DNA from: Eledone cirrhosa
Lineage: Eukaryota
Assembly (NCBI GenBank): GCA_964016885.1
Contig: OZ024757.1
Coordinates: 18,786,001 to 18,850,000 of the forward strand
Length of the DNA stretch: 64,000 nt
Direction: 5' to 3'
Shown piece after piece: positions 48,799 through 56,870 of this stretch. Positions within the stretch are counted from its first letter, which is position 1; the number at the start of each line of letters is the position of its first letter. The position numbers were made by a program, and so were the translations under genes. Below the pieces are notes generated by a model. That model was not told the origin of the DNA. It ran no database searches and saw only the letters and a list, made by a program, of their open reading frames with translations.

Positions 48799-50224
48799 TA
48801 TATATATATACACACATATATATATATATATATACACACACACATATATATATATACACACATATATATATATATACACACACATATATATATATATATT
48901 TGATATCTTGCTAGCAAGGGAAATGGACGTTAAATTATGATGATATATGCACACACACACACATATATATTAAATGGTGATGATGATGATATATATATAT
49001 ATGTATACATACATACATTCATGCACACACTCACTCACACAGACACACACATATATATATATACATACACACTCTCATATATCACATTGGCGCAAAGCAA
49101 ACACACACATACATGTCTAAGTGTGTGTGTCTGTTTGTGTATGTGGGTGTGTGTGTGTTTCTGTGTGTGCTGGTGTTTGTGGCTGTGTGTGTGTTTCTGT
49201 GTGTGCTGGTGTTTGTGGCTGTGTGTATGTGTGTTTGTGTCTGTGGCTGTGTGTGTGTTTCTGTGTGTGGTGTTATATATGACTGTGTGTGTGTCTGTGG
49301 CTGTGTTTCTGTGTGTGGTGTTATATATGACTGTGTGCGTGTGTGTTTGTGTCTGTGGCTGTGTGTGTGTTTCTGTGTGTGGTGTTATATATGACTGTGT
49401 GTGTTTGTCCATCTAAAAACAAAGCATGGCTGTCCTATACAAAGTAAATCCCAGAATACTTGAAGAGGAAAGAGTTAAGTGTGTATTTATTAAGGACCAG
49501 CTTAGAGATATATGGGTCCACTTTCGACCCCTTTAGGGTCTTTTTCAACCCCTTTAAGGTCTTTTTCAACCCCTTTAAGGTCTTTTTTTACCCTCTTAAG
49601 ATCATTTTTGACCCCCCTTAAGGTCTTTTTTGACTCCTTTAAGGCCTTTCTTGACCTCTTTAAGGTCTTTTCCAAACTGGCTTCAAAATTAATAAGCCAC
49701 ATAATTAATAAACCTTGTAAAGATAAACCGAGATAGAGAGAGAGATACATAGACAGATAGAAGGAAGGAGAGACAGATAAATAGATATATGGAAATATTC
49801 AGGACCCCAATGGCTGAGCTCCGGCTGTTTCGATAGCTAGCTAGATAGATAGATGGATAGATAGATAGACAGACAAGTAGGTAGGTAGGTAGATATAGTG
49901 TTTAGCTAGATAGAGATGGATATAGAAATCAACATCACGGGGATAAATACACACATATTTACACATACATACACACACTCACAAACTAACACAATGTGAC
50001 ACATACACACACACACACACTGACTAACAATCCAACACAATGTGACACATACATACATATACAGACACACACTCACACAACTATTGACTGAAGTTAGAAT
50101 GTCTTTAAATAGCAAAGTTAAGCCAACATATGTTCGATTCCAAATCAATCTTCGTCAACAATTCTGTGCCAAGATCTTTCGACAACTTCTGTTCATTCTT
50201 TTTCTCGCTTTTAATATTAATTCT

Positions 50225-50269
50225 TTAATCTTTCTTCTTTGGTCTTTTGTCTTCCATTTTCGATTTCAC
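50225..50269 (-). CDS. Candidate terminal exon VKSKMEDKRPKKKD*
   Basis: catttttcaag acceptor; purine-rich unique sequence; frame ambiguous. Confidence 0.3.
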   Translation of the reverse strand: MKSKMEDKRPKKKD

Positions 50270-51156
50270 CTTGAAAAATGGCTGCCTTGTTCGTTTTGTT
50301 TTGTAGGTTTTTTTGTACAGGGAATTCTCTATATTTAACTCTTTAGTATTTACATTACTCTATATATACTATTGTATTTTCACAGTAAAGGCTTTATCTT
50401 CACATAATTATCTCATATAATATCGAATCTATGAGAGTTAGATATTATTTATTTTGAGAACTGTACCTAAACATCAGTATGAGTGGCCAGTTACAGCCGG
50501 TTTGAACAGAAAGAGGTGAGAGAATTCTGGCCAGATATGGCTGGGTTTAATGCTAAAGAGTTAATTCTTTAACCCTTTATCATTTACATTACTCTATATA
50601 TACTATTAGATTTTCGTGGTAAAGGATTTACTTCATAATTATCTCATATAATATTGAATCTATGAGATTTTGATATTATTTATTTTGAGAACAATACCTT
50701 AACATTAGTATGAGTGGCCAGTTGTAGCCGGTTTGAACAGAAAGAGGTGAGAAAATTCTGGCCAGATATAGCCGGTTTAAATGCTAAAGGGTTGATTCTT
50801 TTAGCCTTTTTGTGCTTGAGCACTTTCCAAATATATATATATATATATATTTCGTTTCTGAATTTGTTTAGCAAGATTCTTTATCTGATAACGTGTGTTG
50901 AAACCGATATTGTTATGCTTTAGGAGGGTCATGTTGCCAATAACATAATATATATATATATAAAGAGAACGTTTTACGCTCTACATGGCTGAATACAATA
51001 AATATAATCAGAGTTTTTCGAATATTAATAATAACATTCGATTCGTTTGCAATTATGCAAGCAAGCCTCATCAGTGGATCTGCTAATATGCAAATCAGGC
51101 CGATCAGTCACTGTGTATTTTTGAAAATAGCATATATTTTCACTAGCTCTGACAGT

Positions 51157-51236
51157 TTGGCAGGTGAAGAGTGAGCTGTACTGATGAAGGGTTATACCCA
51201 GAAACATTAGCGTCTGCAGTTCTGTTCACATGCCAA
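51157..51236 (+). ncRNA. Intact-looking type I hammerhead ribozyme with extended stem I
   Basis: gagctgta-CTGATGA-agggttataccca-GAAAC-attagc-GTC-tgcagttc; stem I extends as ttggca.gtgaa / ttcac.tgccaa; predicted cut after 51214. Confidence 0.85.
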
Positions 51237-52527
51237 CACAAGAGCAATAATGAAGTATTCATTCTACTGCCATGGCTATAAAAGTGAGGCTTGTTTGCAT
51301 AATTGCAAACAAATCGAATGTTTTTATTAATATTTCGAAAAACTCAGATTACATTTATCATCATTTCATCATCATTTTACGTCTGCTTTTCCCTGCTTGC
51401 AAGGGTGGGACAGGAACTGATTTCTACAGCTGGATGCCCTTCCTAACACCAACCTCATTTACAGTGAGTGCCGGGTGCTTTTTTTTTTTACTGTGGCACC
51501 TCCACGACCACTTTGCAGTGGAATGATAGGGACCCCGGTCCCTATCATCTCATTTCTACAGCTGAGTAAACTGGAGCAATGTGAAATAAAGTTTCTTGCT
51601 CAAGGAAACAGCACATCACCCGGTCTGAGAATTTAACTCCCAACCTTTCGATTGCAAGGCCAATGCTCTAACCACTAAGCCATGTGCCTCCATATATATA
51701 TATATATGTGTGTGTGTGTATATATATGTGTGTGTGTGTGTGTATGTGTGTATATATATATATATATGTGGGCAAAGGGCAAAGGAGCTCTTAAGAGTCA
51801 ATGGCCATCCGAAATCACCGGGAGAGATGACCCCTTAGCCTTTGTCAAGGCAGAATTCTAGGAGAAGGAAAACTCTGATATAACATCTGCAACCCTGATG
51901 GTATCCAATGATGTTGACTTGTTCTTCTTTTTGGTAAATATCATCTTGGTTAAGAGAGTGGGACTGGCCTTTGCTCACTATAAAAGCTTCACGGCACAGG
52001 CATTGCTTTATATCTGGAGATCTCTCTGCACTTGTCGTCACATGGTACCATGGGCCCAGCACTATGTGTCAATAATTGTCACAAGTGTAGTGTTTGTACC
52101 AGAGTTTTCAAGTCACTAGCTGGACTAAAAAGTCACACTCGTTCAGTGCATCGGTAGGGGTTCTCCTACATGGATATAAAGTAATGGCCGTACTTGAAAA
52201 CGAGTTGGCAGCCACCATTAAGACCTCGGATAGAATGCGTTATGGTATTTGTACCACCTCTTTGTGCTCTCTGAGTTCAAATCCTGCTGAGGTTAACTTT
52301 GGCTTTCATTCTTTCGAGGTCGATAAAAAAAAAAAGGGTTCCAGTCCAGTACTGGGGTCGATTCTTCCTCTACAGAAAAAATCTGCTGTGTTCAGACCTG
52401 AAAAGGGTTGGGCTCCACCAGGTTTATAAGTGCCCTGGACACACTGTATAACGGTGCCACTATAACTCCACAAGGAATTGTGAGATCTTTATCCTTTGTA
52501 TATACTATATATATATATATATATATA

Positions 52528-56120: not shown

Positions 56121-56870
56121 AAAAAACAGACCAGAAGTTGTTTATTTTCTCCTATACAGTGGTTTGCCAGTAATCGGTAGAGCATCAGACACCACACTTT
56201 GCAGCATAGATTTACGGCCATTTAAGTACCAGTGATGCACTGGGGTAATTGCTGGCCTTCTGCCAAAAGGAGAAACTCAGGGCGGTGGATTGGCAGTATT
56301 GGTAGAGGGTTGGACGCCTTGCTTTGACGCATAGAGTTATGGCCCTTTACATTCTGAGTTCAAATCCCGCCGAGGTTAACTTTGCCTTTCATCCTTACGG
56401 GGTCGATAAAATAAAGTACCAGTAATGTACTGGGTTATTGCTGGCCTTGTGCCAAACGTAGAAACAATCATTTTCTCCTATACAGTGGATTGACTGTAAT
56501 TGGTAGAGGGTCGGACACCATGCTTTGCAGCATAGAGTTATGGCCCTTTACATTCTAAGTTCTCAATCCTGCCGAGCTTAACTTCCTCTTTCATCCTTAC
56601 GGGGTCGATAAAATAAGACACCAGTAACTCGGCAGAAGAAGTCTCCACTACTGCATCCCATTGCTGCTTTGTTCTTCCTAACCACCAAGTACCAGCAACT
56701 TAGTTATCCTCTGATGAGGAGACAAAAATGTCTGAAATACAGAAAAACAAATGAAAGTTGAAACTGTTAATTTCAAAACAGTCTTTATATTTACCTTAAA
56801 TTTACATAAAAATCTTCACACACACACACATAAATACATACACACATGCATACATACATACATACATACA

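What the first reader, a model, noticed from the sequence alone, without database searches (positions are those of the whole stretch)
51010..51346. Best-preserved hammerhead nested between inverted arms that carry a second, divergent core
Seen: a canonical CUGAUGA/GAAAC/GUC ribozyme at 51157-51236 with an 8-bp stem I plus an 11-bp extension beyond an internal loop. It is flanked by inverted repeats 51010-51070 and 51283-51346; the left one reads CTGATGA-stem-GAAT on the minus strand. This is the top candidate for an active ribozyme.
Basis: partly seen in the sequence, partly recalled or inferred. Interest (0 to 1): 0.72.

Follow-up and report, generated by a model that had tools for sequence, protein, structure and literature searches.

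The report
Ordinary copy of a ribozyme retroelement
This is one slightly decayed copy of an abundant 438-base jumping repeat that carries a predicted self-cutting RNA motif and was likely pasted in by Penelope-type retrotransposon enzymes; the flanking inverted arms are a back-to-back partial duplicate, and the supposed second ribozyme is an accident of the join.

Summary
The type I hammerhead at 51157-51236 is real, with the predicted cut after C51214. It is neither unique nor best preserved. It belongs to a 438-nt non-coding repeat with 1,387 exact 34-nt core matches in the genome. This copy has three changes in the ribozyme (51169, 51193, 51211); the last breaks the self-complementary helix III. 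The arms are longer than reported (50998-51070, 51285-51358). They are the repeat's own 3' end present twice, in a head-to-head inversion seen in 106 of 166 family loci. One arm ends about 37 nt further out than the other in 69 of 73 classifiable cases, next to (TA)n: the published Penelope 'tail' signature. The 'second core' is a junction chimera: 0 of 125 other arm copies have it and it forms no stem I or III. Verdict: new member of a known kind (animal non-LTR retrozyme, non-autonomous Penelope-like element). One extra lead: 5' truncations pile up in the 17 nt just after the cleavage site, suggesting self-cut RNA templates. The scan has reported the same architecture for other repeats in this genome. 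No activity or expression was tested.

The parts
50948..50961 (.). (AT)7 microsatellite at the left end of the insertion; its last 4 nt overlap the end of the inverted arm
   Evidence: sequence; 136 of 154 family 3' ends at the two fixed sites have (TA)3 or more beside them
50958..50997 (-). One-sided 'tail', monomer positions m144-180 (m1 = first base after the cleavage site), present on the left arm only
   Evidence: alignment to the family monomer; one long and one short terminus in 69 of 73 classifiable inversions
50998..51070 (-). Left inverted arm = 5'-truncated inverted copy of monomer m71-143
51068..51074 (-). CTGATGA word at the inversion junction: TGA from the arm (m71-73) plus the reverse complement of TCAG from the forward copy (m262-265); not a ribozyme core
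   Evidence: 0 of 125 other arm copies have CTGA in front; best stem I 2 bp, stem III 0 for both GAAU options
51070..51358 (+). Forward 5'-truncated copy, m261-438 then m1-143, with a 33-nt deletion between 14-nt direct repeats; 96% identical to the family monomer over 51079-51358
51157..51236 (+). Type I hammerhead motif: core 51181-51187 and 51201-51205, stem II 51189-51192/51196-51199, helix III 51204-51213, predicted cut after C51214; changes against the family at 51169 (distal stem I), 51193 (loop II), 51211 (helix III)
51285..51358 (+). Right arm = m71-143, the 3' end of the forward copy, stopping at the short fixed terminus
51359..51450 (.). Unrelated dispersed repeat abutting the right end in place of a (TA)n run
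   Evidence: matches in many loci independently of the family; sequence

Best explanation
The locus is a single, slightly decayed insertion of a 438-nt non-coding repeat family with a type I hammerhead motif (1,387 exact core matches), likely copied into TA microsatellites by the reverse transcriptase and endonuclease of a Penelope-like element. Shown: family size, monomer length, two fixed 3' ends about 37 nt apart (m143, m~180) beside (TA)n, variable 5' ends, head-to-head inversions with one long and one short terminus, up to 1.8 monomers per arm, compensatory stem I changes between subfamilies, and the chimeric origin of the 'second core'. Inferred: tandem copies are transcribed; the hammerhead cuts after GUC, probably best as a dimer through the self-complementary helix III, releasing monomers that may circularise; a Penelope-type enzyme nicks TA-rich DNA and starts reverse transcription at the two internal sites, one per DNA end; the two truncated cDNAs are joined at their 5' ends by microhomology, which gives the inverted arms. 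Here one cDNA stopped at m71 and the other ran through the ribozyme to m261. This copy has only one core and a damaged helix III, so I expect weak cleavage at best (about 50% for detectable, about 15% for efficient monomer cleavage; judgement, not data).
For: Copy number: 694+693 exact matches, reversed-pattern control 0; 2,773 matches to a looser pattern that includes sister families. Monomer period 438; median identity to the monomer 94% over 204 segments. Inversions in 41 of 67, 28 of 45 and 37 of 54 loci. One long and one short terminus in 69 of 73 inversions with both ends classifiable; 33 more had one or both ends unclassified. (TA)n beside 136 of 154 fixed 3' ends. These match the inverted 5'-truncated copy and 30-40 bp one-sided tail described for Penelope-like elements (PMC8557442 passages) and the two internal RT start sites that define the tail (PMC11167929). 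Stem I pairs 1-6 are kept across subfamilies: A-U to C-G and U-A to A-U double changes between family A and C. Two cores in direct tandem in 8 of 67, 1 of 45 and 1 of 54 loci. The genome holds long RT plus GIY-YIG open frames. Helix III self-duplex -8.8 kcal/mol in the family and -2.9 in this copy.
Against: No autonomous partner was found: 46 GIY-YIG loci (of 150 scored from 10,595 candidates) gave no homology between a coding element's ends and the monomer, only inserted family copies and a sister non-coding unit. Rfam reports no hammerhead here. The minimum-energy fold of both this copy and the family sequesters the core, about 6 kcal/mol below the hammerhead fold (tertiary contacts are not modelled). 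The A.A opposition at the base of stem II departs from the usual pair, though it is family-wide (98 of the first 100 listed). Covariation rests on one subfamily split, not many events. Most copies are under two monomers, so circular RNA is not required by the data. In a purified Penelope system hammerhead cleavage was not needed for insertion (PMC11167929), and 8 of 9 predicted Xenopus dimers did not cleave in vitro (bioRxiv 10.64898/2026.07.22.740005).
Confidence: 0.87

Rival explanations
1. One reading: a special locus with the best-preserved active ribozyme, nested in arms that carry a second, divergent hammerhead on the other strand.
For: Canonical core and long stem I; real inverted arms; CTGATGA followed by a hairpin and GAAT on the minus strand.
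Against: The word spans the junction and is absent from the family monomer's minus strand and from 125 of 125 other arm copies. No stem I or III can form, against 8 and 2 pairs for the real motif. The copy is average in divergence and lacks the intact helix III.
Confidence: 0.03
2. A miniature DNA transposon (MITE) with terminal inverted repeats that captured a hammerhead.
For: About 75-nt inverted repeats flank a short non-coding interior; TA-rich flanks.
Against: Arm length and junction differ in nearly every locus; 60 of 166 loci have no head-to-head inversion; the two ends are usually unequal by about 37 nt; copies are circularly permuted and run past one monomer.
Confidence: 0.03
3. The repeat is mobilised as described, but the ribozyme is a passenger: templates are uncut read-through RNAs, and the pile-up of 5' ends near the cleavage site comes from the stem I helix stalling the reverse transcriptase.
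For: Most copies cross the cleavage site without a scar (10 ends at m1 among 216 segments covering it). The core is sequestered in the predicted fold. Cleavage was dispensable in vitro for a coding Penelope element. Positions m1-21 are the 3' strand of stem I. Five of the nine m1 junctions inspected show 2-3 nt microhomology with the partner arm, three with the same partner position.
Against: The core is invariant and stem I covaries across subfamilies A, B and C. The excess stops abruptly upstream of m1 (0.0134 per nt in m1-17 against 0.0038 in m422-438) and is absent at the helix entry (m18-34, 0.0018).
Confidence: 0.3

Closest known systems
Animal non-LTR retrozymes (PMC7229834, passages and section 13 read; bioRxiv 10.64898/2026.07.22.740005, parts 1-3 of 5 read)
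   Same: Non-coding, low-GC unit of a few hundred nt with one type I hammerhead per unit, thousands of copies, some direct tandems, highly self-paired predicted circle (-167 kcal/mol; no shuffle control). Two-pair helix III with a mismatch at the base of helix II resembles axolotl HHR_Amex2 (U.U mismatch, 22% monomer cleavage in 1 h, better as dimer).
   Different: Unit of 438 nt is slightly above the 170-400 nt reported for expressed circles; copies are mostly 0.3-1.8-mers in head-to-head pairs, not long arrays; expression and circles not shown here.
Penelope-like elements: inverted/tandem pLTR insertions with one-sided tail (PMC8557442 passages; PMC11167929 parts 1-2 of 4; PMC4209133 part 1 of 4)
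   Same: 5' truncation, adjacent inverted truncated copy, 30-40 bp tail at one end, (TA)n targets, hammerhead upstream of two internal 3' ends, self-complementary helix III.
   Different: No ORF; canonical long stem I instead of the minimal pLTR hammerhead; no coding partner identified.
Other hammerhead repeats noted by this scan in the same genome (310, 445-450, 466, 592 nt units, AI notes)
   Same: Back-to-back arms, two fixed 3' ends, TA microsatellite targets.
   Different: A sequence look-up of this copy found no look-alike note, so this 438-nt family seems not to have been noted; those loci were not checked here.

Membership tests
Type I hammerhead ribozyme | Core CUGANGA, GAAA, UH in type I order with open stem I | tested here: met
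Type I hammerhead ribozyme | Stems I-III can pair, with covariation | tested here: met
   stem I pairs 1-6 kept with two double changes across subfamilies; stem II 4 bp; helix III reduced to one C-G pair beyond A15.1.U16.1 in this copy
Type I hammerhead ribozyme | Paired 10.1-11.1 position closing stem II (recalled convention) | tested here: not met
   A.A here and in 98 of the first 100 listed copies; a U.U mismatch there is tolerated in HHR_Amex2
Type I hammerhead ribozyme | Match to an Rfam hammerhead model | tested here: not met
Type I hammerhead ribozyme | Site-specific self-cleavage | not testable with these tools
   bench assay needed; indirect hint
Second hammerhead on the minus strand | GAAA core half, stem I and stem III | tested here: not met
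   junction origin
Animal non-LTR retrozyme | Non-coding repeat unit of a few hundred nt with one type I hammerhead, many copies | tested here: met
Animal non-LTR retrozyme | Direct tandems with two complete hammerheads | tested here: met
   10 of 166 family loci; not met by the window copy itself
Animal non-LTR retrozyme | Expressed as linear and circular monomer RNA | not testable with these tools
   no RNA holder listed
Non-autonomous Penelope-like element | 5' truncation, inverted adjacent copy, one-sided 30-40 bp tail, microsatellite target | tested here: met
Non-autonomous Penelope-like element | Sequence shared with the ends of a coding Penelope-like element | tested here: inconclusive
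   none in 46 GIY-YIG loci of 10,595 candidates
MITE | Constant terminal inverted repeats and equal ends | tested here: not met

The most novel reading that the evidence does not exclude
The family's insertions keep a fossil record of ribozyme cutting in vivo: reverse transcription often stopped in the 17 nt just after the cleavage site, and most often exactly at it, because the Penelope-type enzyme ran off the 5' end of self-cut linear monomers, while copies that cross the site came from circles or uncut multimers. That would be genomic evidence that hammerhead-cut RNA is a real template for Penelope-type insertion, which an in vitro study did not find.
Probability: 0.5. Interest if true: 0.5.

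Novelty: new member of a known kind. Interest (0 to 1): 0.25.

Why it matters
The locus itself is ordinary: one of well over a thousand copies, and not a good one. The family is a clean example tying animal retrozymes to Penelope-type insertion through the tail and inversion signature, a link already proposed in print from sequence homology. The excess of 5' ends right after the cleavage site offers a testable handle on the open question of whether the ribozyme acts during transposition.

Tried and rejected
Rfam scans found no hammerhead. Sequencing runs: no RNA holder listed; four contig sets of unrecorded type were laid and show only that the repeat is present, with 3 contigs each in organisms B and C; nothing on expression is drawn from them. 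Search for a coding partner: GIY-YIG loci, ORFs around sister-family copies, a terminal-motif pattern and the family D units near two ORFs led nowhere. The MAFFT alignment of subfamilies misaligned family C at helix III, so pairs were counted by anchoring on the core. A first monomer build failed on an indexing slip and a first SINE count used a faulty pattern (1 of 166; redone). ARAGORN found no tRNA. The 5'-end excess was not seen in the two samples selected for an intact core (9 ends, 0.0049 per nt against 0.0043; 2 ends, 0.0042 against 0.0045), where the main copy must span the site. MITE and second-ribozyme readings were rejected as above. Rows dropped before counts: L001, L026 (the window), L005, L006, L049, L058 (near-identical duplicates), L071, L078, L190, L195, L206, L210, L217, L229 (same place as another locus), L131 (from the GIY-YIG search), and segment starts at m105-112 (restarts after another repeat's insertion). 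An earlier count gave 51170 and 51194 for two changes; the correct places are 51169 and 51193. Paper searches; none of the texts I read reports this family or a pile-up of truncations at the cleavage site, but I read parts only and no supplements (bioRxiv supplements are closed), and repeat libraries could not be searched.

Full report
Observation. The window reads CTGATGA at 51181-51187, GAAAC at 51201-51205 and GTC at 51212-51214, in type I order, with a stem I that can form 8 proximal pairs and a distal 10 pairs around one mismatch. The segment folds better than 199 of 200 shuffles, but the minimum-energy fold pairs the core with the helix III loop. Rfam gives no hammerhead hit. The inverted repeats are real and longer than reported: 50998-51070 and 51285-51358.

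The family. Searching the window's 3.0-Gb genome gave 1,324 candidates for the ribozyme region and 1,387 exact matches to a 34-nt core pattern, with 0 for the reversed control. Copies share a circularly permuted 438-nt monomer; m1 below is the first base after the predicted cut. I mapped 166 distinct loci in four samples. The 3' ends cluster at m143 and m~180 and sit beside (TA)n in 136 of 154 cases counted. 5' ends vary. A head-to-head inversion is present in 106 of 166 loci. Where both outer ends could be classed, one was long and one short in 69 of 73 (33 further inversions had an unclassified end). The longest arm was 790 nt, and 10 loci hold two cores in direct tandem.

This is the insertion style described for Penelope-like elements: 5' truncation, an inverted truncated copy at the 5' end, a 30-40 bp tail at one end only, (TA)n targets (PMC8557442 passages). 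In vitro, the tail lies between two internal reverse-transcription start sites (PMC11167929). The genome has long RT plus GIY-YIG frames, but I found no coding element sharing ends with this monomer in 46 loci.

The window copy. The forward copy is m261-438 plus m1-143 with a 33-nt internal deletion; the inverted arm is m71-180, ending in (AT)7. The minus-strand CTGATGA spans the join: TGA from the arm and CTGA from the forward copy. None of 125 other arm copies in the loci then held has it; 84 read AAAAT there. It can form at most 2 stem I pairs and no stem III with either GAAU, against 8 and 2 for the real motif.

How well preserved. The copy differs from the family at 51169, 51193 and 51211 within the ribozyme. 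Among the first 100 listed core matches, 99 have T at the helix III position and 1 has T in loop II (my count). In 44 full ribozyme regions not selected on the core, 7 have fewer than 3 differences, 16 have 3, and 31 keep the intact helix III. The family helix III is self-complementary (-8.8 kcal/mol duplex) and this copy's is not (-2.9); the constrained double-hammerhead costs 8.0 against 12.3 kcal/mol over the free dimer fold (relative values only). Self-complementary helix III and dimer cleavage are described in PMC4209133 and PMC7229834.

A hint of cleavage in vivo. Over all 328 segments, 5' ends occur at 0.0134 per covered base in m1-17, against 0.0040 in m150-399, 0.0038 just upstream and 0.0018 just downstream; m1 is the top single position, 10 of 216. 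The excess was first seen in the arm-query sample (12 ends) and repeated in a new sample (30 ends, 0.025 against 0.0037). It is absent in the two samples selected for an intact core. Caveats: the window was chosen after seeing the first sample, several m1 junctions have 2-3 nt microhomology, and m1-21 is one strand of stem I, so stalling is a rival. PMC11167929 found no RNA ends at the site and no need for cleavage in vitro.

Comparison and verdict. It works like, and meets the testable sequence features of, an animal non-LTR retrozyme mobilised by Penelope-type machinery, a link argued in bioRxiv 10.64898/2026.07.22.740005. Expression, circles and cleavage are untested. Earlier notes of this scan describe the same layout for other units in this genome; I had reached the family, inversion and tail reading before that look-up, and took the wording 'one start per DNA end' from those notes. 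No note matches this sequence. New member of a known kind; interest 0.25.

Noticed in passing
family loci, monomer m109 (e.g. L069, L052, L095); relatives at window 56297-56466, 24172-24342, 9350-9486: A second repeat of about 170 nt, SINE-like, is inserted at the same ATTATT site of the monomer in 34 of 166 loci, with a fixed 3' junction and variable 5' junctions, suggesting site-specific targeting.
   Followed up: partly
L151-L159, L160-L170, L181:7200-8001, L183: Sister families B, C and D share the hammerhead frame and a terminal hairpin region; C has a minimal palindromic helix III and a GUU site; A, B and C all keep the A.A opposition under stem II.
   Followed up: partly
window 6186, 11000, 11175, 11451/11457, 12585, 13702, 15747, 32924, 41259, 44751, 45320, 53168, 57011, 63511: Many other CTGANGA...GAAA motifs that look like minimal Penelope-type hammerheads of several unrelated families, one as a perfect back-to-back pair.
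   Followed up: no
L108, near the inversion junction: A short run of TTAGGG-like repeats lies inside a family copy at a junction.
   Followed up: no
L171:3809-6622 (-), L172:1988-4519, L173:1775-5062: Uninterrupted open frames of 938, 844 and 1096 aa with RT matches; GIY-YIG in all three, by Pfam scan in L171 only: candidate intact Penelope-like elements.
   Followed up: partly
window 50170-50810: Tandem unit of about 231-234 nt just upstream of the insertion.
   Followed up: no
window 29936-30838 and 14119-14911: Minisatellites of 112 nt (99% matches, 8 copies) and 129 nt (6 copies); the 112-nt unit shares words with the repeat at 51420-51470.
   Followed up: no
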